Of a stretch of 64,000 nucleotides of DNA, positions 2,643 through 26,396 are shown piece after piece. The notes beneath the pieces are model-generated. The model did not search any database. It was not told the origin of the DNA and worked only from the letters and a program-made list of their open reading frames with translations. The stretch's first letter is position 1, and every line of letters starts with the position of its first letter. The position numbers and the translations under genes were made by a program. Source of the stretch: Octopus sinensis (Eukaryota); contig NC_043011.1 of NCBI RefSeq assembly GCF_006345805.1, forward strand, positions 44,218,464 to 44,282,463. The letters are read 5' to 3'.

Positions 2643-2981
2643 AGACCTCCTTTGGTCATGATTGACCATGGAATTGCACCTAGAAAGTTACCCTCCCAGA
2701 CACAAGTCGGGCCAAGGTTGTTTATGGAAGACCAGCAGTCACCCATGCATACTAGCCTCCCCTCTCTCCACACCACTGATGTTATCCAAGGGAAAGGCAA
2801 AGGGGCCGATACAGCTTGGTACCAGTGACGCCACATCTCATTTCTACAGCTGAGTGAACTGGAGCAACGTGAAATAAAGTGTCTTGATCATGAACACAAC
2901 ACGCTACCCGGTCCAGGATTCGAACTCACAACCTCACGATCATAAGCTTGACGCTCTAATCACTGAGCCATGCACCTTCAC
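2643..2981 (-). mobile_element. tRNA-derived SINE (family B), nested in a family A SINE
   Basis: tRNA-like head with A/B boxes on the minus strand; related copies at 17655-17910(+), 23180-23519(-), 47800-48123(+); host SINE resumes at ~2983. Confidence 0.8.
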
Positions 2982-3815
2982 TAGAACATCAGGATCAGTG
3001 TAATTGACTAGTTCTTTCCCCACAAACCCCCAAATTTCAGGCATTGTACCCATAGTAGATAGGATTATTAACAGTTCTGTTAAGGCAGAAGCCTCTGGCA
3101 GCTTGCTTCCTTCAAAGAACCATTAGCAGGCGAAATGCTTAGCAGTATTTCTTCCTGTTACAGATGTTTTCTGAGTTCAAATACCATTGAGGGTGACTTT
3201 GCTTTTCATCCATTTGGGGGTGAATAAAGAATGTACCAGTCAAGCATTGGGGGTTGATGTAATCAACTTATAGTTTCTCACTAAGATTGCTGGCCTTGTG
3301 CCAAAATTTGAAACTATTATTAATGGTGTTGTTAATTACTGTGCTAATGTGTAGATTTTGTGTTCAAATCCCAATGTGGTCTATATTAATTTCATCCTCC
3401 TAGGGTCACTTCAGTCCACTACATCTTTGACCTTTTTGGTTCAAAATTTAGAAATCATTAGAATTTTATTTTTGTTGAGTTTGTGTGTGTGTGTGTGTGT
3501 ATGCATGTGTGTGTGTCTATGTATGTATGTACATGTATGCTTATGTAAATGTGTTTGTGTATGTATATGTGTGTGTGTTTGTCTTTGTATCCCCATGTGT
3601 GTCTGTGTATATATGTCTATGCACATGTGCTTCTGTGTATGTATGTACATCTGTATGCACATGAGTTTGTGTATGTGTGCTTATAAGGGTATGCGTATCT
3701 GTATGCATTTGTATATTTGTGTGTCTATGTATGTATGTATTTTGTATGTACACGTGTGCTTATGCAAATGTGTCTCTATGTATATGTGTTTGTGTGTGTG
3801 TGTGTGTGTGTGTAG

Positions 3816-3954
3816 GGAAGTTGTTCCCTATTATAGTAGTCGTAATAATATCAGATCAGAGATCCAGGCGGCAGCCAACCACATATTTGACACATTCTTA
3901 ACGCATCAGTTCCGCGGCTTGTTAATTAACATAGAAATGTTGAGCCGTTGCTAG
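3816..3954 (+). CDS. Candidate alternative terminal exon (R)EVVPYYSSRNNIRSEIQAAANHIFDTFLTHQFRGLLINIEMLSRC*
   Basis: (TG)n-tag| acceptor; phase 2, same as the 29537 acceptor; 45 codons of non-repetitive sequence, then TAG. Confidence 0.45.
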
Positions 3955-6070
3955 CAGTATGCCTGGATAACTGTCACAGACACCCCACAGGTCTCTATCT
4001 GTCTGTCTGTCTGTCTGTTTGTCCGCCCTGTTTGTCAATTGACTCGTAATTATAGTCGTGGTGCTGTCACATCCGTCCTGCCTGAGGAATCTTCGCTTTT
4101 CTAATTTCTCTGTAAGGGGTCCATCTCTGTCTTTCCTTAACCATTCACCACCGCCGCCACCACCATTCCATACAGGGAGCATTACTAATGAAGGTGATGG
4201 TGGTAGCAATGGTTATGTATAGTCTTAACAGTAAGAGTATGGTGGTGGGGGGGTGCCCTCAAAGATAGGACTTTATAGTGTAACCAACCCTTTCATTATT
4301 TAAACATACCAGAAACTAACACCAAGGGACACCTCCGCCTTCTCTTATTTCTCCTATCTTGTAATAGAAACATTTCTGATGACCTCTTATTATGGCATTT
4401 CTGTTATTTGTTGTATCTATATTTGTTTTGTTTATCTTTTTAATTACCATCTTTCTGACTTCTGTTGTTGTTGTTGTTGGTTTGGTCTTTCATAATTTGG
4501 TTTGCTCTGCTTTTTCCCTCAGCCTTACAAAAACAAACTGAACCTTCACTTACAGATATAATCATTGTTGTTCTTGTTACTACTTATCATTGTTGTTAAC
4601 ATTGTTATATTTATTTTCGTTTTGGTCTTTGTTTTTTTTTTTCATCTCTTACCTCCTCATTCTACACTCCATATTTCATACTCCACTCTAGTGTCAACTT
4701 TACTAGTCTGTTACTCTCACCACTAACAACTGTAATCCTGTTCCCTTCTCATGTTGTAATCTCACTGCCTCAGATCATCACACCTGATCTCTTCTTTTCT
4801 CCCTCCATTACAGGGGCCACCTTAGGCCCTTAACATTACAAGTTATGAGGCAATCTTCACTATTACTGCTGCCAAAAAAAAAAAAGGAAAAAACAACCAG
4901 TACACTCTATAAAGTGGTTGCATTAGGAAAGGTATCCAGATATAAAAACCATGCCAAAGTAGCTACTGGAGCACAACGCTTGTCAAATCCTGTTGAAACA
5001 TCCAATCTATGCCTGAATGGAAGCTGGATGCTAAATAAGGATGATGATTATGATGAAGAAGCACTGATGATAGTGCCACATAAAATGCACCCAGTGTACT
5101 CTGTAAAGTGGTTGGTATTAGAAAGGGCATCCAACCGTAGAAACCATTGCAGAACAGACAATGGGATTTGGTGCAGCCCCAAGCCTTACCAGCTCCTGTC
5201 AAACTGTCCAACACATGCCAGCATTGAAAAGGGATGATAAATGATGGTGATGATGGACGTATGTATGTATGTATAAATTGATGGTCTGTGTTCCATAGAC
5301 CAGCAGGGGATGAGTAATGCTATGAAATAAATGTTCCTTCTTGAGCCATGCCAGGTTCATAAGGGCCGGTTTCCCAGTTTCAGTAGCATAGAAATTCCCC
5401 ACCTGGACGGGACGCTGGTCTGTCGCAGGATTACTAATTTTTGCCAGCTGAGTGGACACAATGCATCGCCCGGTCCAGGAAGCGAAACCACAACCTTATG
5501 ATCATGAGTTCAACACCCTAACCACTAAGCCATACGCCTCCACAATGCTATGAGAGCTGGAGCACAAATGAGCGAGAGCGGAGGTTGGCTATTAGAAACA
5601 TTTCAGCTGATGAATGTAGGAGAGATGACTGCAACAAGGGTGTGGATGATGTGTGTTGAGCATTGATAATGGAAGATATGTGGGTCAGAGGGATATTAAA
5701 GGAAGCAGTGGTGGAATTATGGAATTAGTTCTGGTGAAGATAGGGCACCCCCCATAGATGCAGTAGCACAAAATTGAAATGAATGATGGACAGAAAACCT
5801 GTGAAGCAAATGTTGTTAGAGATGTTGGTGGTATATAATGGAACTTTCCTGTTGTAAATAACAGATAAAGGTTCTGCAGCTTTTTGCTAAGCATCCTACA
5901 CAGATGGCTTGTTTAGTGATCAAATATTTGTGTTGTATATTAGACTACTTTCTCTTTTTCTCCATTAAATTGGCATTACTTATGTAAGTGCTACACAGTG
6001 TGCTATATATCAGTTGTAGCCTTGTGGATAGGGTATTGCACTGACGATTGCAAGATTAAGGTTTCAATTC

Positions 6071-6303
6071 AAGGCGGCGAGCTGGCAGAAACATTAGCAC
6101 GCTGGGCAAAATGCTTAGCAGTATTTCGTTTGCCGCTACATTCTGCTACAAATTCTGCTGAGTTCGACTTTGCCTTTCATCCTTTCAGGGTTGATAAATT
6201 AAGTACCAGTTACGCACTGGGGTTGATATAATCGACTTTATCCTTTTTGCTTGTCCTTGTATGTCCCTTCTCTGTGTAGCCCCTTGTGGCAGTAAAGAAA
6301 TAA
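6071..6303 (+). mobile_element. tRNA-derived SINE (family A; ggcgagctggcagaa...gactttgcctttcatcctttcggggtcgataaa), representative copy
   Basis: More than 15 related copies in the window (e.g. 10960-11186-, 25555-25930, 42015-42430, 55845-56050); often next to (ATT)n. Confidence 0.8.
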
Positions 6304-6554
6304 GATTAAGGTTTCAATTCCAAGGCTGGACAGTGCATTGTGTTCTTGAGCAAAAGCAAAGAAAATAAAAAACAAAATAACAAGCACCTAATTTCACATT
6401 GCTTTGATGGTATATACCATGCACGGGCAACTTTCTTTTGAGGAATGTTCTACATGAGAACTGGCTCAGCATCAGATGAGCTGCACTACAAAAAAATATG
6501 AAGATAATTTTTCATTTGGTGTGCCATAAGAAAGTCTTACAGACCACTGTTTAA

Positions 6555-6800
6555 TTGGCATGTAAAAAACATCATTTGAGCATGGTCGTTGCCAGTACCG
6601 CCTGACTGGCCCTCGTGCCTGTGGCACGTAAAAGCACCCACTACACTCTCGGAGTGGTTGGCATTAGGAAGGGCATCCAGCTGTAGAAACTCTGCCAGAT
6701 CAAGATTGGAGCCTGGTGCAGCCATCTGGTTTGCCAGTCCTCAGTCAAATCGTCCAACCCATGCTAGCATGGAAAGCAGACGTTAAACGATGATGATGAT
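6555..6800 (+). mobile_element. SINE/LINE 3'-tail repeat (family D) ending in (GAT)n
   Basis: gcattaggaagggcatccagctgtagaaac...cgttaaacgatgatgat; copies at 690-950, 9836-10205, 50580-51000, 59140-59325. Confidence 0.75.
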
Positions 6801-7866
6801 GTGTTTATCAACCTTAGTCCTTACTTTTAGCAATTACCTTTCACTGACATTTTCCACTCTAGTTTCATGCCTGAGTGGCTAGCAGTAGGAAGGACATCTA
6901 CAACAACTTATTCAGCCAATAAACCTGCATATTCATTAGAACCAGAACAATCTGAGGTGATGATGACACAGTAGAGATGATGAAAATAGATGAATGTTTA
7001 GAATTTCCTGGCTAAAAATATGGCATAAGTCAGGAAACAGTGGTTTGTGTTGAGTCTAGAATAGCAACACATCTTTTTGATTTATAATTGTTTATTTTTA
7101 TACAGTGCTCAACTTGTTTAGTCGTTGGTGAACTTGCTTTGACCAGAATTATGATTAAATATGTTTTCCAGCTATGATAATCCTGTCTTTCTATAGAATA
7201 TTGTATACCTAGCACTACATTTTCCAATATGGCCCTTTCTCTTCAAGATAGTAGGATTTCTTTGATATGAGGGGCTGATTTGGCTGCTATCTCTCATAAA
7301 CTAATATATTCCAGTGATATTTGATATATATATATATATATATATATATTAGTTTGCAGTGGTGTGTGTAAGCATGTATATATAACACACAAACACTATA
7401 ATAGTCTATATGTCTATATGTTTATGTATGTGTATATACACATACACACCCACAGATATATATATATATATACAGCACTATGTGGAGGTGTACTAACAAT
7501 AAGCATTTGTGTGAATATAATCATCTTCATCACACACACACACACACATACACACATGCATATATCTACAGAGATATGTATGATGTATAACAGATACAGT
7601 AGCATACACAATACACAGCAATATGTAGTGGTGTGTGTGTGTGTGTGTTGTATACACACATACATAAATACTACATTACAATGCACAGTGGCACATATAA
7701 TATGTAGCACTGTGTGTGTGTGAGAAGGAGTGTGTATGTGTGTTTGTGTGTGTGTATATGCAGAGGCAACATTCATTAATTGCTATGTGGTAGTTTCAGT
7801 ACCAAACACATCTGATGGTATTGTCACTTCCTTCTCTTTCTTTCTCTCATTCTCTGCATATGCGTT

Positions 7867-7903
<37 letters not shown>

Positions 7904-8489
7904 CACTGAAAGAGAAAGTGAAAGTAGCATTCCTGTTCCTCAACAATTATGATAATGGTTATGAAGAAACAATATCTGTGTGAGCGAATGGAGCAAGGAG
8001 TAAGAGAAAGACAGAGGATATTTGCAAGCCTTCCATGCCTCTTGTCTGTTCGCGATGATGATGAGGATGCTGATGAGGATGAGGATGATGATGATGATGA
8101 TGATCTCTCAGAATACCACCCCCTCTCTCTTCCACCCCCCTCTCTCTCTCTCTCTTTCTTCTTTGTGTGAATGAGAGACAAGTATTCTTGTTTTCTAGCA
8201 ATGAGGATGAGCTATGATGTCCTTGTCAATAATAATAAAACTGCAATGCACACACACACATACACACACGCACACACCTTCGTACACACACACGCACACA
8301 CCCTTGCCATTGACCTACCCACTTGCCTACCCCCTTTGCATTGTATTATTATTATTATTATTATTAGTAGTAGTAGTAATAATAGTAGCAATGGTAGTAG
8401 TAGTAGTTGTTGTTGTAGTAAAACCTTATATTAAGAGGACATCTTCAATCAGCTGCTGCTGCCTCTACAGGACACACAGTGGTTGCACT

Positions 8490-9180
8490 GCGGCATATAC
8501 CACCACCATCACCACCTCCTACACCACTGACACTACTAGATACTAGCACCACAACTGCTTAATAATACAACCATTATTATCATCAACACCGCCGCACTAC
8601 CACCAACACAACTACCCACTCACTTATCACCACTACTGCTGCTTCTACCACTGCCACCGCCACTACAACCACTACCACCAACACCAACACCACTACAACT
8701 AACACCACTACCCACATCATCACTACTACTGCTACTACAGCTAACACCACTACCACCAACACCATAACTCACTTATTACCACTACTACTACGACTACCAC
8801 CAACACTACTACTACCACTACTACTATAATTACTGCTTGCACTACTACTACCACCACCACTCCTCACATCATTACTACTACTACTACCGCCACAACACTA
8901 TGCATATCACTACTACTATTACCACTACTACCAACACCACTACCCATATCACTGCTACTTCTACCATCACAGCTACTACCACTAATACGGCTATTCACAT
9001 TATGACTACCATCACCATTACCACAACCACTACAACAACTGTCACCTGTACTACCAGCACTGGGAGTATTACTATCAGCACTACAACCACCACCACCACC
9101 ACTACTACCAACACTATCACCACAACTTTCATCATTCATACCACTACTGCCCACACAAATTCCACCACCACCACTGTAAT
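8490..9180. repeat. Degenerate (CAC/TAC)n low-complexity tract
   Basis: ACC/ACT trinucleotide mosaic that produces spurious poly-Thr ORFs. Confidence 0.85.
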
Positions 9181-9523
9181 TATGAAAATAATAAGATGAA
9201 AGGAAGAGAGAGATGGGAGGGGTGCAGTTGGATGTGGGTGGTTGTGGGGTAAGTGGTACTAGTGATTGTAGTAGTGGTAGTAGTATGCTAGTGGTGGGGT
9301 AAGTTGGGTAATTTTAATTAGTTTTCATAAAGAAAATACAGCTGTGTCGGTGCAGGCATGGCTGTGTGGTTAAGAAGCTTGGTTTGGAACCAGGTGGTTT
9401 CAGGTTCAGTCCCACTGCCTGCTACTGTCCTGTGTGGGCCAACCAGTGCTTTGTGAGTGAATATGATTGACAGAATCTATGTGGAAGCCTGTCAAATATA
9501 TGTCTGTCTGTTTGTCTAGCTAC

Positions 9524-9555
<32 letters not shown>

Positions 9556-9563
9556 ATATATAT

Positions 9564-9595
<32 letters not shown>

Positions 9596-9800
9596 CACAC
9601 ACATATATATATATATGCACACATAGATATATATTTCTGTGTGACTTAGAGGTTGAGAAACCAACTAAGGAATAGTACCTATCCATATACTGCTGGTAGT
9701 GTACCCAGTTATTCATAGCCAAGTGCTAGTTATTGCATGGCAATCTCACAATTTAGTATTATATATGTAAACCACTTTTTACCTCCGCCCATATTTAACA

Positions 9801-9839
<39 letters not shown>

Positions 9840-11199
9840 TCGTCATCATCATCTTCGTTTAGCATCCACTTTCCATGCTAGCATGGGTTGGACGGTTCAA
9901 CTGGGGCCTGGGAAGCCAGAAGGCTGCACCAGGCCCAGTCTGATCTGGCAATGATTCTACGGCTGGATGCCCTTCTTAACGCCAACCATTCCGTGAGTGT
10001 AGTGGGTGCTTTTTACGTGCCAGACAAGGCTGGCAAATGGCCACGATCGGATGGTGCTTTTTACGTGCCACCAGCACGGGGCCAGGTGAGGCTGGCAACG
10101 GCCACAATCGGATGGTGCTTCTTACGAGGCCAGTCGGGGCGGCGCTGGCAACGGCCACGTTCGGATGGTTCTCTTACGTATCACCGGCACTGGTATCACA
10201 GCTGCAATATATATATATATATATATATACACTCACGTATAAACATCATCATCATCATCATTTAACATCTGCTATCCTATGTGTCAAACGGAGTTCATTG
10301 AAGCAGATTTTCTATGGCCGGATGCCCTTCCTGTCACCAACTATCACCTGTTTCCAAGCAAGATAATATTCCCTTATAGCCAGGCATAGGGGGCATGAAT
10401 GTCACCACTTATATGATGACGACACTCATTTACAACAAATATTATGCAATGTCAAAGCAAGGAGACACACACACACAGATATACGATGGACTTCTGTCAG
10501 TTTCTGCCTGTCAAATCCACTCACAAGGCTTTGGTTGGCCCGAGTTTGTAGTAGAAGACACACTTACCCAAGGTGCCATGCAGTGTGACTGAACCCAGAA
10601 CCATGTGGTTGAGATGCAAACGTCTTACCACACAGCTATGCCTGTCACCTGCACATATATATACCTATATATATATATATATATATCCACACACACACAC
10701 ACACTCACACATGTATACCAATGTGTTGTGTAATGTATCTTTGTGTTTGTCTCCACCAGTTGACAATCTGAACTGGTTTGTTTACATCCTTATAACTTAG
10801 CAGTTTGGCAAAAAGACCGATAGAATAATTACTAGGCTTAAAAGTGAATACTGGGGTCAGTTTCTTTAACTTTATCCTCAAAGGTAGCGCTTCAGCACAG
10901 TTGCTGTCCTATGACTGAAATAAGTAAAGGATAAAAACAATAATGGTTCTGATAACAATTCTTATTTCTTTACTGCCCACAATGGGCTAAACATAGAGGG
11001 GACAAACACGGACAGACAAAGGGATTAAGAAGATTACATCGACCCCAGTGCATAACTGGTACTTAATTTATTGACCCTGAAAGGATGAAAAGCAAAGTCG
11101 ACCTCAGCAGAATTTGAACTCGGAACATAACGGCAGACGAAATACTGCTAAGCATCATGGTAACGATTCTGCCAGCTCACCACCTTAAATTCTGATAAC

Positions 11200-11850
11200 T
11201 CTTCTGTTGACCTCACTACAATAGACAGGGTACAAAATAAACCACCACCCCCTCTCTCTTTACAAAAGATGTACTACTAACTATCTTCCTACCTCTACAA
11301 CAAACTGAAGTACCAACTGCCTCTTTCTCTACAACAGACGTGGTACTAACTACACCTCTCTACAACAGATGCATGAGATGTACCAACTCTCTATGCCTCT
11401 CTTCTCGCTCTCTCTCTGCCACTCTTCTCTCTCTCTCTCTGCCTCTCTTCTCTCTCTCTCTCTGCAACTGACACAGGGTACCAAATACATCCCTCTCTCT
11501 CTGCACCAAACTCGTAGTACCAACTGTCTCTGTCTCTACAACAGATGTGGTGCTAACTATTCCACCTCTCTCTCCCTCTACAACAGACACATGAGACCTA
11601 CCACCTCTCTCTCTCTCACTCCCTCTCTCACTCTCTCTCTCTCTCACTCTCTTTCTGTCACTCTCTCTCTCTCTGCCTCTCTTTCTCTTTGCAACAGACA
11701 CTGGGTACCAACTACCTCCCTCTCTCTGTAACAGACTCGTAGTACCAACTACCTACCTCTTTCTCTCCCCTTTTTATCCCTCTACAACAGATGTAGTAGT
11801 ACCAGTTGCCTCCCTCTCTCTCTCTCTCTCTAACATGTGGTACCAACCAC
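11200..11850. repeat. Degenerate minisatellite (ctctacaacagatgtggtaccaactacctc) interleaved with (CT)n
   Basis: About 10 recurring ctacaacaga...gtaccaacta units. Confidence 0.75.
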
Positions 11851-13725
11851 TCAATTCTCTTTATGCATACAACAAGCATCTGCAACTGCACAAATAGCCC
11901 CCTCCCTCAAAGCCTCTTCAAGTTCAAGCCCTCACCATCAATGTGTGTCTTTCCTGGTGACCACACGTCCTTAACATAACAAGAACTGCATCTCAAAGAC
12001 TGGCCTTCCTCTGTGGAATAATGAAAGGAATGGTGGTAGTGGTGGTGGTGATGTTGGTGTTGATGATGATGATGATTGTGTTGACAATGCTAATGGTGTT
12101 TTGTTGAGACAACGGTTCCGTTCCAGTTACTATTTAATAAAGCCATTTATATTGTTTCTTACTTCAACTGTTCTAGTTGGCAGAGTGATAGAAGGAGAAG
12201 GCAGAGCAGGCATGGAATGAGGGTTAGGGGTCTTTTATCATTTGAGTGAAGACCTAAAAGAAAAAAAAAATTGCTTCTTGAAGTGGTTAGCATTAGGAAC
12301 AGCATCCAGCCATAGACACCATGCCAAAACTGATATGAAGCACCGGGACAAGACACGAACACCACACACACACATACACACACAAGCCTAGTCAGATGTT
12401 AACCAATGATGATTAACGATGATGGTGATGATGATGATGATGATGATGATGAAGAATCATGTTTCTGCTGTAGAGATGGAGGAAATAGAAAGAGACAGGA
12501 TTGGTTGGTTATTGCTATTGATGTTGTCTTATGGACAAAATTATTTTCAGATAGTGATGGTGTTTGGGCTGGTTGATGATAAAATTGGGCTTGGCCAAAG
12601 GATAATAAAGAATTACAATAGAGCAATGAGATGGGAAGGAAGATGAGAAAGAGAGAGATAGGCAATGGAGGTGAACGAAAATAAATGGGATATGATGGGA
12701 TTTACAGTTTACCAATGTGTAAGGTATTGATGCATAATTATCATCAATATCACCATTTTTGCCATTATCGTCATCCTCATCATCAACATGAGGTGTTGTT
12801 GTTGCCTTGATTCTATCTGCCTTGATTCTGCAGACTTACCGTATTTTCCAGCGTACAAGCCAAATTTTTCAGACCATAATTGACAGACAAAACAACTTAG
12901 GTTGACTTTTGCACCAAGATGACTTTGTAGGGCTGAAAATTCCATGTGAAATGCAACAGGACTTGGAAAGATGGTGACGGTGTTGTTTGCACTACACACT
13001 ACATTGGCTTGTGTGCCAGAAAGTACAGGATGGTCAATGATCTTCCAGTTGTGACCACCCTGTATTTTGCGGATCTTTGTTAAGATGACAAAGGTGTGAT
13101 TTGAGGGCTTTTGGTTGGTGTTTTTAGTGGTGGTGGTGGTATTTGGGCAATGTAGAATAAAGATGTGACACACACACACACTGACAGACATTTTGTACAA
13201 GATGGGGTTCTCTTCATGTCATAGGTTCAATTCCAGCTCTCAACCGTTATTTTGCTTAAGTATAACTGGAAGCCTTGGAGCAGGGAGGGAGGATGTTGAT
13301 GCTGGATAACCACCAACACCACAATCATCATCAACACTACAACCATTAATATCATAAGGACCACACTAACACAACCAGTACCCTGCCATCAACACCACCG
13401 CTACTACCACTACCGACCCCATCTCCACCACCACAACCGCTACTATCACCAGCATCACCACCACAACATCTACCACTACCATCACCATAAACACCACTCG
13501 GTATCACAACTACAACTACCCCCCACGACCACTACCATCATTATAATCACCACTTCCACCGTCATCAATAGCTAAAACCACCACCACCACTACTACTACT
13601 ACAACCACCACTACTACCACCACGGCAGTAACACCCCCACACTCCACCCCCACTGTTTTTTCCACTTCTTCCTCGACCACCAAACAAGTAAATTCAAGAT
13701 GAACAAAATATTTATCTATGTTTGT

Positions 13726-13769
<44 letters not shown>

Positions 13770-14235
13770 ATGTATGTGATATCATCCTGATCATCATAGG
13801 TTCAATTCTTATACATGTTGCATACACATTCATGCATTGTTTCATTTGCTTATTTTCTGGGGTTTTTTTTCAATTTTTTCCTTTTTTTTTTTGTAAAATT
13901 TTCGTTTTGTGTGTGTGTGTGTGGTTGCGATTTCAAGGGCCTCAATTTTTTGTTTTCTACCTGTTTTTTTTTTTTTGCATTGTCACAGACAGGTGATCCC
14001 CCACCCCCCCATTTTCTCCCTACTTCTACCACTTCTATGCATTTTCTTCCTTTACCCGCGTCTGTCTTTCTTGCTGCAAAACACATGTAGCGGAGGCAAT
14101 ATATATATATATAGACACACACACATACATTCACATATATACATATATGTGTGTATATATGTGTATACACACACATATATATATACATATATACATGTAT
14201 GTGTGTGTATATATATGTATATATACTCACACACA

Positions 14236-14287
<52 letters not shown>

Positions 14288-14509
14288 CTTATATATGCAT
14301 ATATATATGCACACACAAACACTCATACATATATGATATATTATATATATGTATGTGTGTTTGCATGTATGTATACACATATACACACCCGCATGTTGTG
14401 GACTGACTGTGGAGGTGTGACAGCAACAGCAGAGCATTAACTAGCTGCTGCTGTCGCTGCTGCTGCAGCTACTACTACTGCTGCTGCTGCTGCTGCTACT
14501 AATCGTTAC

Positions 14510-14517
14510 ATGAACAT
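14510..14517 (+). CDS. Candidate coding end of an alternative first exon: ATG AAC AT|gtaagt
   Basis: Perfect GTAAGT donor at 14518-14523, phase 2, in frame with exon 29537 (MNI-LLENQ...); in-frame TAA upstream at 14438-14440. Confidence 0.45.
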
Positions 14518-14584
14518 GTAAGTATTGGGAATTCTACTCTACCAAGCGGTCCTCACCCTCTCCTTTCTCTCCCTCTCTTTCTCT

Positions 14585-14617
<33 letters not shown>

Positions 14618-14804
14618 ATTCCCTTGCCTTTTACCAGACTCTTCTCCAGTCTTGTTCAGTCTCTCTGTCTGACACAAACCGATTCTTTTGTGTGCAAAAT
14701 GGGCAACCACTACCTCGACCCTAGATTTACTAAAACCTCTTATTAAGCCACGCATTCCATAAATCACACACACACACACACACACGCATACACATACACA
14801 CTCT

Positions 14805-14838
<34 letters not shown>

Positions 14839-14991
14839 CTTCTATATATATATATATACAACTATATATATACACACATATATATATATAAATATACACC
14901 CTATTCATATACGTGAGTAGTCTTGTATTCCTTTACTGTTGATGTTGTTCTTGTCCATTTCTTCTCATCATCATCATCATCATTATTATTG

Positions 14992-15022
<31 letters not shown>

Positions 15023-15656
15023 TGTTGTTCTCTGCCCATTTTTACCTATGTAAACCCCCTCACCTTCGTGTGCAACGTTTTGCCTTTTGATGTTGATGTA
15101 TAGTTGCCAACATCTTAGGCTCTTGTGGCCAATATAAGAACCCATTATTATTATTATTATCATTATTATTATTATTATTATTTATTATTATTATTTATTT
15201 ATTATTTTAAACATTTGATTTCTAATTTCGCTCCGTTTATCTATTTTTTTTTCATTTTTTAAAAATTTTTTCTTTCTGAAATGGTTACCAAAATGTTGCT
15301 TCCTCTCCCACAATATATTTTTATTTATTTGTTTTATTTGTTTTTATCTGTTTATTCCACCACCACCACCACCACCATCATTGTTTTAATCAAGCGTTTG
15401 TATATTTGGCAAAAATCTTTACCATCGTCTTCACCATCACCATCATCATCATCATCATCATCACCTTTTTTATCTTCATTGTAAAACCGTTACCTTCGTT
15501 AGTTTTCCTTCACCAACACCGATCATCATCGCCGCCTCCATCCTCATCATCGCCGCTGCCAACCAGCCTCATAGTATTTGTTCTCACTCTTATCATCATC
15601 ATCGTTGTTGTCGTTGTTGTTTTCATAAGCAGCAGCAGCACCGCCCCCATCACCAG

Positions 15657-15694
<38 letters not shown>

Positions 15695-16300
15695 CCACCC
15701 TCATTGTCAATCGTTGTTGTGAGTGTTGCATCTCGTCCTGTCTCATTTCAAAACTGAATCGTTTTACTAGAGAGTAAAAGACTTGGTGACTGAACTGTAT
15801 CTACAGGCACACACACACACATGCACATAACATGTAGAGACACATACACACACAAAATGCACACTCACACACACACATACTTATGCAAAATGGTGGCACA
15901 CTAACATGCTCACACATACACACACACACATGTACACACATAACATGCTCACACACTCAAAATGCACACACATCATACACACTCACATGCACAGACACAC
16001 ATTACATGTACGTATATATACATATACATAACATGCATACACACACACACACGCACACAAATATGTAGACACACATACACACAAACTGCAGACATACATA
16101 ACATGCACACACACACACACACACATAACATGCTCATACACACACACACATAACATGCACACACCACACTGATACAAAACGCAGACACACACACATATAT
16201 ACCTATATACATATAACATGCACATAGACACACATGCAACATACACACTCGCATGCACAGACACACATAACATGTACATATATACATAGCATGCATACAT

Positions 16301-16336
<36 letters not shown>

Positions 16337-18070
16337 TTAAAATATTCATCATCATCATCATCTTAAGAACATAGTCATATATTAAATTTACATTTATAAA
16401 CATGTACATATACACATCACAAAGACATTTTTTTCTGAATATATACACACACATGTATGACTGTTGTGTGTGTGTGTGATATTTTGTTGGAGAAGACCCA
16501 CCCATCACTTGTGAGCTTGGAAGACTAGACCTAAAATGATGACAATGATGGTGGTGATGATGATGATGATGATATTGGTGATAGTAGTGATGATGATGTA
16601 TATTCATTTTTTTTTTTTTTCCAAGTCAATGTTTCATTCTGTTGCTACTCCGAGTTTCATTTTTCCATCATGTTCTTTTCCTACGTGTGTGTGTGTGTGT
16701 GGGGGGGCTAATATAATGTTAAAATGTCGGTTTGTTTGGATTATGCATGTAATAATGTTGCGTATAATACTGAACTATTAGCTTTGTTTTCTTGGAAGAT
16801 TTATGCACAGACATGCACACACACACACAAACACACCAGCATATAGGTATGTGCATGCACGTGTGTGTGTCTAAATATGTGTGTGTGTGTGTGTGTATGT
16901 ATGTATATATATATATATATAATTAATAATAATAATATTAGGGAGTAAATCCAAACTTACAGGGAAAAATTAGATTTAGGATTAAATCTAATTTTATAGT
17001 ATAAATATATATATAGTGGTTTTATCTCTAATTTAATATATATATATATATATATCTTATCTTTTACATGTTTCAGTCATTGGCCTGTGGCCATGCTAGA
17101 GCACCACTTTGTAGAGTTTAGTTGCACGAATTGAACCTAGTACATATCTTTTGGCCTCGGTACTTATTCTACCGGTTTCATTTATTGAAGCAACACCAAT
17201 TGCGAAGCATTGCGTATGGGACAAGCACAAAGACACACATACACGCACAAACATACATGTATGTGCATGCATGCCTGCGCGCGCGCGTGTGTGTGTGTGT
17301 GTGTGTGTGTGTGTTGTTGTTAGCAAGGGCATCCAGCCGTAGAAACCATGCCAAAGCAGGCCTCAAATCTTGGTGCTGTCTTCTATATTTCCAATTCCTG
17401 TCAAAACTGCCAACCCATGCCATCATGGGAAACCGGCATTACATGATGGTGATGATGATGATGATAACAACAGGCTATCAAATCCACTCACAACATTTGG
17501 CTTGACCTGCGTCTTATAGTAGAAGAAACTTGCCCAAGGTGCCGTACAGTAGGACTGAACCCAAGAATACATGGTTCTTCATCACACACATGTACTCAAA
17601 CACATTGTGTGCACACACACACACACACACACATAAATATAAATATATATATATAGGTGGCTCAGTGGTCAGAGCATCGGGATCGCAGTTATTTGGTAGT
17701 GAGTTCAATTTCCAGGCCAGGCAGTGTGTTGTGTTCTTAAGCAACATTCTTTATTTCATGTTGCTCCTGTTCATTCATCTGTAGAAATGAGTTGTGACAT
17801 CTCAGGTGCCAAGCTGTATTGGCCTTTGCCATACCCTTCGATAACATCGTTGATGTGGAGAGTGTGGGCTGGTATGCATGGATGACTGCTGGTCTTCCAT
17901 AAAACAACCTAGCAATTAAGTACCAGTGCTCAACTGGTACTTAATTTCTCAACCCCGAAAGGATGAAAGACAAAGTCAACATTGGCGGAATTTAAACTCA
18001 AACATAAAGATGAACAGAATACCACTAAGCATTTTGCCCAGCATGCTAAGGATTCTGCTGGCTTGCTGCC

Positions 18071-18107
<37 letters not shown>

Positions 18108-19107
18108 CAACAACAAAAGCACTCAGAGAATGCAAACCTCCACCAAGGCAATACCAACTTCCTCTCAATGATTAGCCAGAGAGGATTTTTAAAATGATAA
18201 TATCTGAAATAAACTCGACTGCTCTCAAAAACGAGAATACTAAATATGAACCCGGCCACTCTAAAAATTAAGTAAAAATAACAGGAAAAAATAATCCAGA
18301 ATCCTTGTCCAATACCGAATCGATCCCAAAATCTAAATCAGTTCATGCCATTCATGAAGCCAAACATCCCTGAAGGTTTCATTTGAATCCATCCAGTGGT
18401 TCTTGAGATATCTTGTCCACAGACAAACACCCAAAACAAACACAACTGAAAACAATACCTCCGCCTTCGCTAAGGCAGAGGTAATAGTAATAATGAGCAT
18501 TGCAGATTTTGATGGGTAGGGGAAGTTGATTACATCAACACTAGTATGTATCTGATACTTATTTCATTGATACCGAAAGGTAAAGTCTACCTTGGTGGAG
18601 TTTCATTATGATTAAACACCACATGGTATTTAGTCCCCATCTCCACTATAAAGATGATTAACGTGGACTTCTTTGTTGCGTATAAAGTGGTTTAGGTCTC
18701 TCCTTGAACAAGACACATAGCTCTTCATGTCTACAGTCTTCTAACACTGGATTGAGACAGTTAAGTGATGGGTTGAACACCTTGGCCCATTTAGTTACCT
18801 CGCTTTACATTCCAGGTTCAAATCCTGCTCAAGCCAGCTTTATTTTTCAGTGTTCTGAGATCAGTAAAATAAGTCTCACACAGACACACACCTATATATA
18901 AAGTTGGTGACCTCACTAGTGTTAGTGCCATGAAAAAAGCAACTTGTACATTCTTCTGAGTGGTTAGCATTAGGAACCAGCTGTAGAAAGCATGCCAAAG
19001 AAGATGATATTGGAACTCAGTGCAGTTCTCTGACCTGTCACTTCCTGTCAAACTCTGTAACTCATGTCAGCATGGAAGACGGAAGTTAAATGATGGTGAT
19101 GATGATG

Positions 19108-19138
<31 letters not shown>

Positions 19139-19947
19139 ATAAATGTAGGTGGTATACGAGTGGGTATATATTTATGAAAAAGAAGTTTGAAAATGCCACT
19201 ATATAAGATAAATTTAAATTTTCTTAGAAATTTAACATGTTTCGGTTCTTCTTGAAAAACGAACCCTATCAAAAATATTTTAAAAAGTCAAGTGTAATAA
19301 AAAAGTTCATAATTGTTTCTTACTAGTCTCAACAGAATCCATGTGGTGGTTTTTTGTGGGGGAGAGCATAATAGCTGTCTTGTGTGTTGACTAAAGTCCC
19401 CAACTTTAGTCAACACACAAGCATTGGTTGTCAAGTGATGCTGGGGGGACAAACACAGACACACAAACATATATATATACGACGGGCTTCTTTCAGTTTC
19501 CGTCTACCAAATCCACTCACAAGGCTTTGGTCAGCCCGAGGCTATAGTAGAAGACACTTGCCCAAGGTGGCATGCAGTGAGACTGAATCCAGAACCATGT
19601 GGTTGGTAAGGAAGCTACTTACCACACAGCCACTCCTACGCCTATTATGTATTTATACATGCATATTTGGAGCACACACACATACATGAAAATTGGTACA
19701 AACATGGCGAAGGAAAGAGTACTCAGATAGAAGAGTTAAAGTAAAATGCAATTTTATTGGGGCTGAGGGAACTTCACAAGCATAACCATCCATGACAGCT
19801 GTGGGAATATATCTATCTTTCTATCCATATGTGTGTGTAAGTGTGCACATGTGTACACACTCCAAATCTTCTTGAGCGCATGCACGCGTGTACACATTTT
19901 AAATTTTCTTGCATCAATATAATATATATGAATGTAAGTGTGCATGT

Positions 19948-19988
<41 letters not shown>

Positions 19989-21089
19989 TTTATTTATGTA
20001 TGTATATTGTGGAAGCGCGTGGCTTAGTGGTTAGGGTGTCAGCACCATGATCGCAAGATTGTGGTTTCGATTCCTAGACCGGGTGACGCGTTGTGTTCTT
20101 GAGCAAAACACTTCATTGCACATTGCTCCAGTTCACTCAGCTGGCAAAAATGAGTAACACTGCGATGGACTGGCATCCAGTCCAGCTAGGGAACACATAC
20201 GCCATAGAAACTGGGAAACCAGGCTCATGAGCCTGGCTAGGCTTGAAAAGGGCGCGTTTATTTATTTTTATGTATGTATTATATATATTAATGCGTGTTT
20301 GTATTTATACACACACACACACAAGCACACATGTGAATTGTTCCGTACTTGTTGTACTTCTAATATTTATTTACACAGATACACTATAATTTCTGAAAAC
20401 GTAAGAGATTTATATAGAAATATCATGAAGTAAGTATCTTAGTTTTGCCTGTTGTAAGAAAGGTAAATCTATCCCCCCCTCCACCCGCTCTCACTTGTCT
20501 ACACACGCAGGTGAAGATGAATGCCACAACATCACCATAATTTATTATCAGGTTTTATACTGTTTATTGTTATCATTGTCACTATAGCAGAGCATTGAGT
20601 GGGGGCATTGTAGAATCAGTAGAGCACCAAGGTAGTGGCTGGTAGCAAATGGGATATCAGAGATGGGGGATGAAAAAGGGATGATGGATTGTTGAAATTA
20701 CTTTTAGGTTTACTGATTTCAGCTAGACGTTGTGGCCATACTGGAGCACTGCCCTTAGTGCAATTATTTTATATTCCACACTCACTTCCCGGCTCTCTTT
20801 CTATCTCTCCTTCACTCTGGAACTCTTTCTGGTGAAATTACAAGTTGGACGGAGTGAAGCTGCCTACAGGTAAAGCTGTGCATTAGTGATGCACTGGTCT
20901 CAGTTTGGTGTGGTATCTAGGTTACATTCCCTTGACTTTTTCATGTTCAAATCCCACCAAAGTTTGCTTTACCTTTTATCCCCCTAAGTTCTATACATTA
21001 AAGGATCGCTCAAGAATTGTTGTCAATAAAAACAACTCCACTCCTCAAAATTCTGTGCTTGTGCCTAAATTTATTATTATTATTATTAT

Positions 21090-21318
21090 TAAGGTGGTAA
21101 GCTGGCAGAATTGTTAGCACACCAGGCGAAATGCTTAGCGGTATTTCATCTGCCACTTTGTTCTGAGTTCAAATTCCACTGAGTTCAGCCTTGCCTTTCA
21201 TCCTTTCAGGGACAATAAAACAAATACCAGTTGTACACTGGGGTTGATGTAATTGACTCATCCCCACCTCCCCTTCAAGCTGCTCTTGTGGCAAAAATTT
21301 TAAATAATAATAATTACA

Positions 21319-21362
<44 letters not shown>

Positions 21363-21830
21363 GGCAGTATTGCTAGCATGCTAGGCAGAATGCTTAGTGG
21401 TCTTTCCTCTGTCTTTATGTTCTGAGTTCAAATTCCACCAAGTCAATTTTGTCATTCATCCTTTTGTGGGGTGTTGGGGGTCAATAAAATACATACCAGT
21501 TAAGTGCTGGGTTTATGTAATCAACTTACCCCCTTACCCCAAATTACTGGCCTTGGACCAAATTTGAAATCAGTATTATTATTATTATTATTATTATTAT
21601 ATAAAGGCAGCAAGCTGGCAGAATTATTAGTACGCCGGGCAAAATGCTCAGTGGCATTTCTCCCCATCTTTACATTGTGAGTTCAAATTCCACTGAGGGA
21701 AACTTTCATCCTTTTGGGGTCGATAAAATAAGTACCTACTAAACACCGGGGTCAATGTAATCGACTAGTCCCTTCCCCCAAAATTTCTGGCTTTGTGCCT
21801 TTAGTAGAATGGATTATTATTATGTATTTA
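21090..21830 (+). mobile_element. Tandem array of three family A SINE copies separated by (ATT)n
   Basis: Repeated gttcaaattccac...catccttt...gtaatc units at about 21090, 21362 and 21605. Confidence 0.8.
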
Positions 21831-22316
21831 TTAAGGGAGTCAAAATCATTGTCCCTTTTTCAGTGAGGCTAGGGGTGAGAGTTAAGGGTGGTGGACTAAA
21901 GCAATGAAACTGAAACTTTTGTGGTTTGTGAAGATGTGGCCCTCACCCAGAAATTGAGTCTCTGGCTTGGCAAACCCAGCTTAACTGCAACTTAGCTCTT
22001 CCTCTACTGCAATTCCAGTCCCCCTTTGCTGTGTCCCTTCTGTCAACAACTTCCATTTAGTGGATCCCCTATGCTGTTGCTTGACCTGCGAGGTGTTGTA
22101 GAAACAATATCAAATATTACTGTCTTAAACGAAAAAGGAAGGACCTATTAAATAATTCGTCGTGATGGTCATGGATGGAACACTGTTTTATTGTAGGTTT
22201 GTTGAATGAGGTCTTACCTGGGGTGATACAGGTGCACCAAAATTGATGTAGCAATATACATGTTAGGACTTTCAGTGGATCAAAGGAGAATTTTTAGGAT
22301 CTTTTATCTGTTTTCT

Positions 22317-22544
22317 TTAGCTCTTTAGCATTCAAATAGTCTATCAAATATAATGTTTATTTTATTCATATTGTAATGAATTGCTCATGCATTATCTGGT
22401 AGCTTTGAAATTTCAATAATGTGGATGTTTATTTTTAGAACGACATTGTAAGGTAGGTGTGAGAAGCTGGATCTATCCAGTTTGAACTTAAAACAGGTAG
22501 ACTATTTGGGCCTGCCATGACTTGTTTAAGTGCTGATAGGTTAA
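22317..22544. mobile_element. piggyBac-type MITE (degenerate)
   Basis: ttag-ctctttagcatt...tgctgataggttaa ends; related inverted copy at 36557-36730 with TTAA-CCCT start. Confidence 0.6.
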
Positions 22545-23529
22545 TCAGTCAGTGAAGGAGTGAAGTAAACTAGAATGATCTTTGGTAGCCTGGCAGAGTA
22601 CCAAGACTTCAGGTGTAACAAATATACAGGAGTATATATATATATATCACGTGATCACATGACCGACCAGGCTATCAGATGTTGCTACACATCGCTGGTC
22701 ACAATGCGCTTCGCATTGTTTTAGCCTTCAAATGATGCCACCCCACTGACTAAGCGAGCAGGCCATATATATATATCTGTTGGTACAGTGAGATCTCTGG
22801 TTGACTGAGTAAGTACCAAGACTTCAGGTGGGATTAATGTACATGTAGGTATAGTGGAATCTCTGGTAGACTGAGAGACTATCAGGACTTCATATATCTT
22901 AGGTATCCAGGAGTAATTAGCAGCAGGTGTTGTTATGAAATGAATTCTTTGAACCTCTTAGATGACACGCAAAATGTATTTGATAGATTCTGTTAGCAAG
23001 TTGATGCAATTAGTTTGATCTGATTAGTGCTGGAAATTGTAACCAGAGTATATATATATCACACTTATGCACACCTCACATATAAACATCATCTTCAACA
23101 TTTGTTATTTAGATTTTTTAAGAAGTTTAAAATTTCACTGTATTCCTATGGTGGGTACAGTACACTAGCAGGGTAAAGGGTAAAGATCCCTCTCTGCCAT
23201 GAATGACCATGGGATCGCACCTAGAAAGTTCCCCTCCATGACACAAGTTCAGGCAAAGTTGTTTTGTGGAAGACCAGCAGTCGCCCATGCATATCAGCCT
23301 CCCCTCTCCATGCTACCGATGTTATCCAAAGGAAAGGCAAAGGCCAATACAGCTTGGCACCGGTGACATCACGACTCATTTCTACAGCTGAGTGAACTGG
23401 AGCAACGTGAAATAAAGTGTCTTGCTCAAGAACACAATGCACAGCCCAATCCAGGAATTGAACTCACTACTTCATGACTGTGAGCCCGATACTCTAACCA
23501 CTGAGCTATGCACCTTCACAGTATGCTCT

Positions 23530-23948
23530 TTTTCTCTTTTATTTGTTTCAGTCATTTGGCTGTAGCCATGCCGGAGCACTGCCTTTAGTCAAGCAAATCG
23601 ACCCCAGGACTTATTCTTTGTAAGCCTAGTACTTATTGTATCGGTGTCTTTTGCCGAACTGCTAAGTTACGGGGATGTAAACACACCAGCATCGGTTGTC
23701 AAGCGATGTTGGGGGACAAACGCAGATACACAAACATATACACACACATACATACATATATATAAATATATATATATACACATATATATGACAGGCTTCT
23801 TTCAGTTTCCGTCTACCAAATCCACTCACAAGGCTGTGGTCAGCCCGAGGCTATAGTAGAAGACACTTGCCCAAGGTGCCATGTGGTGGGACTGAACCCG
23901 GAATCATGTGGTTGGTATGCAAGCTCCTTACCACACAGCCACTCCTGC
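23530..23948 (-). mobile_element. tRNA-derived SINE (family C, with internal microsatellite)
   Basis: gcaggagtggctgtgtggtaag...ggttcagtcccac head; copies at 19400-19642, 26900-27255, 39765-40150, 59013-59570. Confidence 0.8.
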
Positions 23949-25332
23949 TAGCAACCATCCATGTATTTCTTCTCTGAGGTCCAGAACCTTGACCCTAACT
24001 CACCTCCCACCTATTCCTCTGCTCTCCTTCTTCAACAGTTACTGTTCCATCCACATCCTTTCACATCTTCACCCAACTGTAACCATTCATTTACATCACA
24101 AACCCATGGCACATCAATCATCTCGCCTGCTGCACAAATGGGCTCATATCTTTAAAATACTCGACCTTTTCCCCCAGTTCACACCTTTAGTACTCTGCGT
24201 CCTGTCCTTCATTAGATCTCTTTGATGATAATCACTTCTGAAGGCAGTGAGTTTGCAGAGTCGTTAGCGGTGTTTCATTCGTCATTATGGTCTGAGTTCT
24301 CCTGCTGCTGAGGTCATCTTTGGCCTTCTTCCTTTCGGGCCAATAAAATAAGTACCAATGAAGGACTGAGATCGATGTAATCAACTTGCTCCCTCTCTTG
24401 ACCTTGCAGGGCTTTGTGCCAAAATTTGAAACCAATAGCCAATCGCTCCTTCAGTCCAAACTTTTAATACTCAGTCCCTCCCTTAGCATATATCTTTAAT
24501 AGTCAGCTCTTCCCTCAGTCCAGACCTCTGATACTCATCCTCCTTCCCTCCCACTCTTTCAGTGCACTTACGTTTCTCACACAAACCACTATGGGTTGAC
24601 CATTACCTGACCAACAGCCCTTTAATTTGACTCCTTTCTCTCCAACCTCTTCCACTCCCTAACATATACTTAAAGGTCCATGCCTTACTCATTTCCAATA
24701 TTACATTACTGTGTTCCTTTACCCAAGTCATATTGTTAGAGAATTTAGGTTCCATGCTGCCAACACACTCTCTCACGTGGTCTTGAAGTGTTTTGCCCTA
24801 GGTCAGTCCTAATCCTGATCAAACAAATCTAAGGTATTCCAGCAACCATCACACCGTCCCATTTTTCATATTTTTAGCAAGACCTCATCCAGCAGGACTG
24901 CGTTATCTAATTTGTCCTTCTTTATTTTTTAAGACAGTATGATATGATTTGAAGGAGTTTAGCTGCTGTTTCTAATAAGCCAGGCAACCATTTAATTTAA
25001 TGTAGGACAGGTTACCACCATTACATGATATTCTTCCCTGCTATATTAAACATAAGTTGCATTGTATTTTTAATTCAGATAAATATATTTGTGAATATTT
25101 TCTGACTTACCTTTCTTATTAATTAATTAATTAATTAATTAATTATCTAATTATTGTTAATTCAGTTAATGAATTTCTACAATTTCTTTTAAAGTTACTT
25201 TCATTTTTTATTTGTTTGTTACTTTTTTGAAAGTTTTATATCTCTGTGAAAACTCTAGAATTTCACCAAGATTGGCACCTACAGGGAAACACATCAACCT
25301 ACACACAAATACACATGCATACGCACATGCGT

Positions 25333-25366
<34 letters not shown>

Positions 25367-26149
25367 GACTGGCTGTGGCCAGCCCGGGGCTATAGTAGAA
25401 GACAATTGCCAAGGTGCCTTGCAGAGGAACTGAATTTAAAATTATGTGGTTGGAGAGTAAACAGCTTCATGAAAGAGCCATGCTTGGCCTGTATACATGT
25501 GTCTGTGTGTGTGTGTGTGTGTGTAATAATAATAATAATGATAATGAGGATCAAAGACGGTGAGCTGGCAGAATCGTTAGCATGCTGGGCGAAATGCTTA
25601 GTAGTATTTTGTCTGTTGCTACATTCCGAGTTCAATTTCTGCCAAGATTGACTTTGCCTTTCATCCTACTAAAGAAGTACCAGTGGAACACCGGGGTCGA
25701 TGTAATCGGCTTAACCCCTTTCTACTATAGAAACAAGGTCTGAAATTTTGAGGGAGGGGACTAGTCAATTACATCAACCCCAGTGTTTCACTGGAACTTA
25801 ATTTATCAACTCTGAAAGGATGAAAGGCAAAGTCAACCTCGGTGGAATTTGAACTCAGAACGTAAGATGAACGAAATGCTGCTGAACATATTTCCTGGCA
25901 TGCTGACGATTCTGCCAGCTTGCCACCTCAGTGATAATAATAAAGGCAGAAGAATGGATTATATGGTCTTGCTACAATGCTTAATCATGATATCCCTTCA
26001 TTGATAAACACTTCACCTATGGAACAGATTGTTTATCTGTTGATTTGTATTATACTGTCTAACCATCAAGTATGGTTTGCTATGTCTCATTCTTTAAATA
26101 GATCCCCTTCAATTTAATGTGTGTGTGTATTATATATATATAGCAAAAA

Positions 26150-26187
26150 CTGTCTGATGAACGGCAACGAGAAACTCAGAGTAACAG
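26150..26187 (+). ncRNA. Minimal type I hammerhead ribozyme-like motif (Penelope-type)
   Basis: ctgt-CTGATGA-acggcaacga-GAAA-ctcagag-TA-acag: core, palindromic stem III, GUA triplet, stem I ctgt/acag; stem II closing pair imperfect. Confidence 0.55.
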
Positions 26188-26291
26188 ATTTTGTTGAATT
26201 TTCTGCTGCTTAAAAGAAAGCATATTACTCTACCACTGGTATTTGAGTACTCTTTTTTCCACCTTGTTTCACATTTATGTGTTTACTCTGG

Positions 26292-26327
<36 letters not shown>

Positions 26328-26334
26328 ATATGTA

Positions 26335-26391
<57 letters not shown>

Positions 26392-26396
26392 GTGTG

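What the first reader, a model, noticed from the sequence alone, without database searches (positions are those of the whole stretch)
14390..14523. Candidate internal first exon giving a headless 509-aa myosin V tail
A (GCT)n leader with an in-frame TAA (14438-14440) precedes ATG AAC AT|GTAAGT. Splicing to 29537 and the 11 later exons gives 1530 nt = 509 aa (MNI-LLENQ...KRV), comprising the last coiled coil and the full globular tail. Nearby AGs (14444, 14468) are phase 1 in this frame, so an in-frame internal cassette does not fit. Headless myosin X from an alternative promoter is a precedent in another class, and overexpressed myosin V tails act as dominant negatives.
Basis: partly seen in the sequence, partly recalled or inferred. 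Interest (0 to 1): 0.75.

Follow-up and report, generated by a model that had tools for sequence, protein, structure and literature searches.

The report
Candidate motorless myosin V in octopus
Inside a very long intron of the octopus myosin V gene sits a start codon and splice signal that would, if used (untested), make a motorless cargo-binding tail predicted to brake or anchor transport, and automatic gene models of five other mollusc genera show motorless myosin V forms joining at this same exon.

Summary
The window is the 3' part of the Octopus myosin V gene. Its 14 tail exons (29537-59896) translate identically to O. sinensis/O. vulgaris isoforms, and bases 1-29536 are one intron. ATG+GTAAGT alone is not rare (7 of 9 GTAAGT in this intron qualify). 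This site alone also has an ATG-free, GC-rich leader; about 0.1-0.3 such sites are expected by chance, with post-hoc filters. No RNA evidence was obtained, and none of 24 long cephalopod proteins has this start. New support comes from other molluscs: motorless myosin V models in Mytilus (RefSeq isoforms of the same gene), Littorina, Patella, Mya and Biomphalaria join unrelated acidic N-termini at exactly this exon. Verdict: about 40% that this exon is real; about 60% that octopus makes some headless form from this intron. No paper on a natural headless class V isoform was found.

The parts
14392..14509 (+). putative 5' leader of the candidate first exon (true start unknown); GCT-rich array 14444-14497; in-frame TAA 14438-14440
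   Evidence: 14410-14509 is 53% GC, 97th percentile of non-repeat intron, with no ATG; only GCT-rich array on the + strand; transcription not shown
14510..14517 (+). candidate coding part: ATG AAC AT (Met-Asn plus two bases of Ile); T at -3
14518..14523 (+). candidate 5' splice site GTAAGT, phase 2
   Evidence: rank 10 of 1873 GT, 8 of 9 U1 matches; use not shown
12985..17059 (.). stretch free of interspersed repeats but rich in microsatellites, around the candidate; third longest of the window, and the two longer ones hold exon 29537 and the last exon with its 3' end
   Evidence: self-BLAST
13970..13993 (+). strong pyrimidine tract with AG acceptors (exon starts 13989 and 13993); with donor 14518 these give 529- or 525-nt stop-containing exons
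1..29536 (+). one intron of the myosin V gene, at least 29.5 kb; the 13 later introns are 315-7474 nt
   Evidence: no upstream Myo5 exon found by tblastn or 6-mer search
29537..29657 (+). LLENQL exon, start of the last coiled coil; the exon at which other molluscs' motorless models join
40492..41282 (+). two coiled-coil exons, 40492-40569 and 41189-41282
47439..59896 (+). nine exons of the globular tail with the DIL domain: 47439-47585, 49628-49779, 51579-51668, 52469-52619, 54135-54247, 55514-55585, 57186-57271, 57587-57758, 59651-59896 (stop TGA)
   Evidence: Pfam PF01843 on the identical C-terminus of P0114

Best explanation
The octopus myosin V gene likely has a second promoter inside the long intron before its last coiled-coil exon, and the short exon ending at 14517 is its best candidate first exon, which would splice to 29537 and give a motorless 509-534-residue tail predicted to bind cargo adaptors and damp or anchor myosin V transport. 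Shown: gene identity, exon structure, the start codon, donor and reading frame, and that motorless models of other molluscs join at this exon. Inferred: promoter, transcription, splicing of 14517 to 29537, translation. Inferred mechanism: the retained coiled coil dimerises the tail; the globular tail binds the same adaptors as full-length myosin V but cannot move, so it competes for or tethers cargo, as the mouse Flailer protein does at 1:1; it could also hold motor heads off in trans, since the head-binding residues are kept.
For: (1) Frame and phase fit, and no internal stops. (2) It is the only phase-2 site in 29.5 kb with a strong donor, an in-frame ATG and an ATG-free, GC-rich leader; about 0.09-0.26 expected from decoys (post-hoc filters). 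(3) The intron is at least four times longer than any of the 13 later ones, and the site lies in its longest stretch free of interspersed repeats away from an exon. (4) Motorless DIL-domain models join at the homologous exon in Mytilus, Littorina, Patella, Mya and Biomphalaria. In M. galloprovincialis, full-length X1-X9 (XP_076081181-90, those listed) and motorless X10-X13 (XP_076081191-95) form one accession run; M. edulis and M. trossulus show the same pattern. Tails are identical within species in 4 of 4 pairs tested. (5) Mytilus uses several short alternative first segments ahead of a large exon, so short first exons in this intron have a precedent. (6) The last 47 residues before the junction are 66% identical between Mytilus and the oyster-like model P0029, which points to selection on this alternative exon. 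(7) Mouse MyoVa tail residues L1679, R1680, K1754 and L1790, which contact the motor (PMC9733927, section 8), are kept in octopus, with K1681 as R. (8) Precedents: headless Myo10 from intronic starts, one adding a single Met (PMC5725431 passages); Flailer, Myo5a exons 26-40, dominant negative at 1:1 (PMC10644554 passages).
Against: No transcript evidence for the exon or junction. Of 24 long cephalopod proteins with this exon, 17 have the normal upstream exon, 7 have a 45-aa cassette and none has the MNI start; no headless cephalopod protein appeared. 7 of 9 GTAAGT sites in the intron fit the same frame. The start context has T at -3. The region is a microsatellite mosaic, which could explain both the GC and the lack of interspersed repeats. 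Other molluscs' motorless forms carry 345-1128 extra acidic residues, with no match in this intron, so a 3-residue start is not their ortholog. Only full-length forms were listed for Haliotis, Babylonia, Ruditapes and the oyster RefSeq sets. The Patella caerulea gene is split into motor and tail models, so some motorless models may be annotation artefacts. A headless maize myosin XI transcript gave no detectable protein (PMC3935558 passages).
Confidence: 0.4

Rival explanations
1. The site is a chance ATG plus GTAAGT in a microsatellite-rich intron, and octopus makes no headless myosin V.
For: 7 of 9 GTAAGT sites fit the frame; a Markov model gives at least one such site in 67 of 100 runs; 0 of 24 long cephalopod proteins and no short one has a headless start; T at -3.
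Against: With the clean-leader filter only about 0.09-0.26 such sites are expected; the intron is unusually long; five mollusc genera have motorless models at this exon.
Confidence: 0.3
2. Octopus does make a headless myosin V, but from a start upstream of the window. The 45-aa Cys/His-rich cassette exon of O. sinensis and O. bimaculoides would be the remnant or 3' end of the ancestral mollusc headless exon, and the 14510 site is unused.
For: The cassette lies in the same intron, joins the same exon, is 73% identical between the two species and has cysteines 13-24 residues before the junction; Patella, Mya, Mytilus and the oyster-like model have a CxCxxC motif 27-39 residues before it. The cassette is not in the window.
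Against: No BLAST similarity between the cassette and the other N-termini; in all 7 stored proteins it is an internal exon of full-length forms.
Confidence: 0.22
3. The donor at 14518 is used with the strong acceptor at 13989 or 13993, as a stop-containing (poison) exon that sends Myo5 mRNA to decay, or as a second untranslated exon of a transcript starting further upstream.
For: The pyrimidine tract at 13989 (79% pyrimidine, 68% T) is as strong as real acceptors (42-95%); both exons contain stops.
Against: The exon would be 525-529 nt, far above the 18-246 nt of real exons here, and would include long TA/CA repeats; no read evidence.
Confidence: 0.08

Closest known systems
Headless myosin X (mouse Myo10; PMC5725431, passages read)
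   Same: Transcription start inside an intron, a private first exon (one variant adds a single Met) spliced to shared downstream exons; hypothesised dominant negative or scaffold.
   Different: Class X with a PH/MyTH4-FERM tail (recalled); starts at M644 and keeps the lever arm; shown by immunoblot. Here class V, only the last coiled coil and globular tail, and nothing is shown experimentally.
Flailer (mouse Gnb5-Myo5a fusion; PMC10644554, passages read)
   Same: Motorless myosin Va tail (exons 26-40) behind a short foreign N-terminus; dominant negative at 1:1.
   Different: An accidental rearrangement driven by another gene's promoter, not a natural isoform.
Motorless Myo5 gene models of Mytilus (RefSeq X6-X13), Littorina (XP_070178886/7), Patella caerulea, Mya arenaria, Biomphalaria glabrata
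   Same: Same gene, same acceptor exon, tail of 511-536 residues where complete, no motor or IQ motifs.
   Different: They carry 345-1128-residue acidic N-termini, several with CxCxxC near the junction; the octopus candidate adds only 3 residues. They are automatic models; no paper on them was found.
Headless derivative of maize myosin XI (O1 locus; PMC3935558, passages read)
   Same: Short transcript from the second half of a class V-like myosin gene, encoding coiled coil and DIL domain.
   Different: Plant class XI; its promoter showed no activity and no protein was detected.
Mouse myosin Va, PDB 7YV9
   Same: The mollusc junction aligns to LLESQL at residue 1321; the tail is homologous throughout.
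   Different: Full-length motor; octopus has R at K1681 and N at motor D134.

Membership tests
Class V myosin gene (tail part) | C-terminal globular tail with DIL domain | tested here: met
   PF01843, E 4.5e-32, on P0114, whose C-terminal 531 aa equal the window's exons
Class V myosin gene (tail part) | Motor domain and IQ motifs in the full-length product | tested here: met
   PF00063 and PF00612 on P0114; best PDB match mouse MyoVa 7YV9; these exons lie upstream of the window
Headless myosin isoform from an internal promoter (headless Myo10 type) | Transcription start inside an intron | not testable with these tools
   needs CAGE, 5' RACE or long reads; only indirect sequence hints
Headless myosin isoform from an internal promoter (headless Myo10 type) | Private first exon spliced to shared downstream exons | tested here: inconclusive
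   donor, phase and frame fit; no junction read obtained; no such protein among 24 long cephalopod records
Headless myosin isoform from an internal promoter (headless Myo10 type) | Open frame lacking the motor, otherwise identical to the full-length protein | tested here: met
   in silico only: 509-534 aa, no internal stop, C-termini identical to stored isoforms in 3 of 4 exon combinations
Headless myosin isoform from an internal promoter (headless Myo10 type) | Protein detected, and antagonises or scaffolds the full-length motor | not testable with these tools
   bench work needed; motor-contacting tail residues are conserved
Mollusc motorless Myo5 models | Joins at the LLE/LLQ exon of the last coiled coil | tested here: met
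   by construction of the candidate; homologous junction shown
Mollusc motorless Myo5 models | Long acidic N-terminus, often with CxCxxC near the junction | tested here: not met
   candidate adds 3 residues; tblastn of 8 N-terminal segments against 1-29536 found nothing at E<=1

The most novel reading that the evidence does not exclude
Molluscs have kept, across bivalves, gastropods and cephalopods, internal promoters in the intron before the last coiled-coil exon of myosin V. These make natural motorless myosin V: in snails and bivalves with a fast-evolving acidic N-terminus ending in a cysteine motif, and in octopus stripped to three residues from the exon at 14510-14517, a built-in dominant-negative or cargo tether for class V transport.
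Probability: 0.35. Interest if true: 0.68.

Novelty: new variant of a known kind. Interest (0 to 1): 0.5.

Why it matters
Myosin V tails have long been used as artificial dominant negatives, and the Flailer mouse shows what one does to synapses. My literature searches found no natural, gene-encoded headless class V isoform in animals. If real, cells could tune vesicle, ER and pigment-granule transport by switching promoters, without touching the motor. The recurrence of the same junction in five mollusc genera makes this testable at once in existing RNA-seq. It would also mean that proteins filed as 'fibrinogen-binding protein-like' or 'autophagy-related protein 11' in mussels are myosin V isoforms. 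The octopus exon itself is still only a candidate.

Tried and rejected
No genome is held for this window, so the upstream part of the intron and other octopod genomes could not be read. Run search on 29400-32400: no RNA holder listed, 24 rows, 17 guessed-RNA rows with small shares; not used as evidence. No read alignment over the candidate exon was obtained, which leaves expression and splicing open. An exact search for 27 bases of exon 29537 in metagenome contigs gave 0 matches. Protein searches for a short cephalopod tail isoform: none among 105 hits, 24 hits or 49 hits; the short cephalopod hits are single-exon read-throughs or partial models. A search with the Mytilus junction-proximal segment found only 4 Mytilus proteins and P0029 among 128 candidates; the ESM Atlas best score was 0.75, no lead. 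In-frame cassette exon rejected. Coding exon in another frame or on the minus strand rejected: stops or homopolymer runs in all six frames. The six other GTAAGT sites with an in-frame ATG look like ordinary intron, with low-complexity peptides. No CpG island at the site (CpG o/e 0.35-0.95 per 500 nt over 14001-15500). The octopus myosin with alternative first exons in PMC9258296 is myosin VIIa, with its start codon in the shared exon (passages), not this gene. Earlier-findings look-ups returned nothing. No structure or complex prediction was run: a myosin V tail dimer would pass by likeness to solved structures. I recall a truncated isoform of C. elegans hum-2 (myosin V); searches did not find it, so it is recalled only, and it would lower novelty if right.

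Full report
What the window is. The last exon (59651-59893) is 100% identical to Octopus sinensis and O. bimaculoides unconventional myosin-Va. Fourteen exons from 29537 to 59896, all with AG acceptors and, for the 13 internal ends, GT donors, translate without mismatch to the C-terminal 531 aa of O. sinensis X1 (P0114) and seven other stored Octopus isoforms. No upstream myosin exon was found in 1-29536 by tblastn or 6-mer search, so this is one intron of at least 29.5 kb; the 13 later introns are 315-7474 nt. In full-length proteins the exon before 29537 ends in FHQKLNR or is a 45-aa optional cassette; both lie upstream of the window. No genome was held.

The observation. TAA 14438, ATG 14510, AAC AT, GTAAGT 14518-14523 and the acceptor before 29537 are as described, and the phase-2 junction keeps the frame. 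Three of the four combinations have C-termini identical to stored Octopus proteins; the 509-aa one has none, though squid-type P0119 and P0124 skip both. All 13 AGs tested between 13938 and 14469 give frameshifts or stops, so an in-frame cassette is excluded. A strong acceptor at 13989/13993 leaves a stop-containing exon possible.

Is it more than chance? The core pattern is not. 7 of 9 GTAAGT sites in the intron have an in-frame phase-2 ATG, and an order-3 Markov model yields at least one in 67 of 100 runs. The candidate stands out on added features. Its donor ranks 10th of 1873 GTs and pairs with U1 at 8 of 9 positions (real donors 5-8). Its 100-nt leader has no other ATG and is 53% GC (97th percentile of 1835 non-repeat windows). 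It lies in a 4075-nt stretch free of interspersed repeats, third longest in the window, and the two longer ones hold known exons. In decoys (other phases, later introns, minus strand; about 341 kb-phases) a strong donor with in-frame ATG and clean leader occurred 3 times (matrix) or once (U1 rule), about 0.26 or 0.09 per intron of this size, and never with a leader of 50% GC or more. These filters are post hoc. The start context has T at -3, there is no CpG island, and the whole 13-17 kb region is a microsatellite mosaic. No read evidence for transcription or splicing was obtained.

Comparative evidence. Searching for relatives turned up motorless proteins (Pfam DIL, with no motor or IQ hit) whose N-termini are unrelated to myosin and end exactly at the exon homologous to 29537: Patella caerulea P0006, Littorina saxatilis P0030 and P0126 (RefSeq X2, X1), four Mytilus species, Mya arenaria P0151 and Biomphalaria glabrata P0152. 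In M. galloprovincialis, full-length isoforms X1, X3, X6 and X9 (XP_076081181-90) and motorless X10-X13 (XP_076081191-95) are one accession run on one contig; M. edulis and M. trossulus show the same pattern. Tails are identical between motorless and normal-upstream models in 4 of 4 within-species pairs, with 3 mismatches in the cross-species Patella pair. The 20 N-termini tested at this junction (345-1128 aa, 16-23% D+E) share no 8-mer with any of 173 motor-bearing proteins; the 21st protein, Pecten X4, is motorless but joins one exon earlier. Mytilus models begin with several different short segments ahead of a shared large exon. That these models rest on RNA-seq is my inference from how RefSeq isoforms are built; I did not see their support. 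The last 47 residues before the junction are 66% identical between Mytilus and the oyster-like model P0029, and a CxCxxC motif sits 27-39 residues before it in Patella, Mya, Mytilus and P0029.

Results against. Only full-length forms were listed for Haliotis, Babylonia, Ruditapes, Lineus and the oyster RefSeq clusters (for three large clusters only 15 members were listed). The P. caerulea gene is split into motor and tail models. Of 24 long cephalopod proteins with this exon, 17 have the normal upstream exon, 7 the cassette and none the MNI start. None of the mollusc N-termini matches this intron. The octopus Cys/His-rich cassette, upstream of the window, may be the real counterpart of the mollusc headless exon, though BLAST shows no similarity.

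How it would work. Shown: the product would start at the last coiled coil (heptad a/d hydrophobicity 7 of 12 and 10 of 16 in the best registers), at the position of LLESQL 1321 in mouse MyoVa, and include the whole globular tail. In the closed MyoVa structure the tail residues L1679, R1680, K1681, K1754 and L1790 contact the motor, and the tails dimerise through a strand that covers the adaptor groove (PMC9733927, section 8 part 1 and passages read). Octopus keeps four of these five, with K1681 as R. Inferred: a promoter near 14.3-14.4 kb or upstream, splicing of 14517 to 29537, and a dimeric motorless tail that binds cargo adaptors without moving. It would compete with or tether against the full-length motor, as Flailer does at 1:1 (PMC10644554, passages), and might inhibit heads in trans. 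Headless Myo10 is the natural precedent (PMC5725431, passages). The maize O1 headless transcript, with no detectable protein (PMC3935558, passages), is a warning that such a transcript need not act as protein.

Novelty. Ten literature searches (listings and abstract starts seen) found no paper on a natural headless class V myosin isoform in molluscs or other animals; a 2026 review of non-muscle myosin regulation has no occurrence of 'headless' (PMC13249394, passages). The library lacks most subscription journals and theses, and I recall an unverified truncated C. elegans hum-2 isoform. No supplements were read. The octopus myosin with alternative first exons in PMC9258296 is myosin VIIa (passages). 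Class: new variant of a known kind; it would work like headless Myo10 or Flailer, but membership in that kind is not established.

Verdict. Real first exon giving a 509-534-aa headless tail, 0.40. Chance site and no headless form in octopus, 0.30. Chance site with a headless form starting upstream, 0.22. Poison or untranslated exon, 0.08. These are judgements, not computed values. Interest 0.5, carried mostly by the recurring mollusc motorless isoforms at this junction and by how cheaply junction reads would settle it.

Noticed in passing
P0018 family, Mytilus RefSeq X6-X13: Motorless Myo5 isoforms are auto-named 'fibrinogen-binding protein-like', 'autophagy-related protein 11' or 'GRIP and coiled-coil domain-containing'. 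Alternative starts include a cysteine cluster (MSSCTCC) and MGAAAS, which resemble palmitoylation and myristoylation signals (motif meaning recalled, untested) and would anchor the tail to membranes.
   Followed up: partly
upstream of the window; P0002 residues 1360-1404, P0116: Octopus-specific 45-aa Pro/Gln/Cys/His cassette exon between the normal upstream exon and exon 29537, 73% identical between O. sinensis and O. bimaculoides and absent from the squid and Argonauta records seen.
   Followed up: partly
window 33000-33017 and 43425-43481: Two optional small exons (18 and 57 nt), both conserved in squid proteins and used in different combinations.
   Followed up: yes
window 57186-57271 and the motor domain of P0114: All 24 stored cephalopod-type tails have R at mouse K1681, and the two cephalopod motors checked have N at mouse D134; both belong to the head-tail inhibition interface, a possible co-change.
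   Followed up: partly
window 30203-30469 +: 89-aa frame with HPPYSPDIAPSDFHLF, resembling a mariner transposase motif (recalled); no Pfam hit at E<=0.01.
   Followed up: partly
window 1-29536: GTAAGT sites with an in-frame ATG are skewed by phase: 7 of 9 in phase 2, 4 of 9 in phase 0, 0 of 9 in phase 1, against 1.14 expected in phase 2 by a Markov model (maximum 4 in 100 runs); unexplained, and the other six sites look like plain intron.
   Followed up: partly
P0150, Pecten maximus RefSeq X4: A 600-aa motorless isoform that joins one exon earlier than the other molluscs' forms.
   Followed up: no
window 26292-26900: 609-nt TA-type microsatellite, 307 copies; about a quarter of intron sequence is covered by repeats with several copies in the window.
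   Followed up: no
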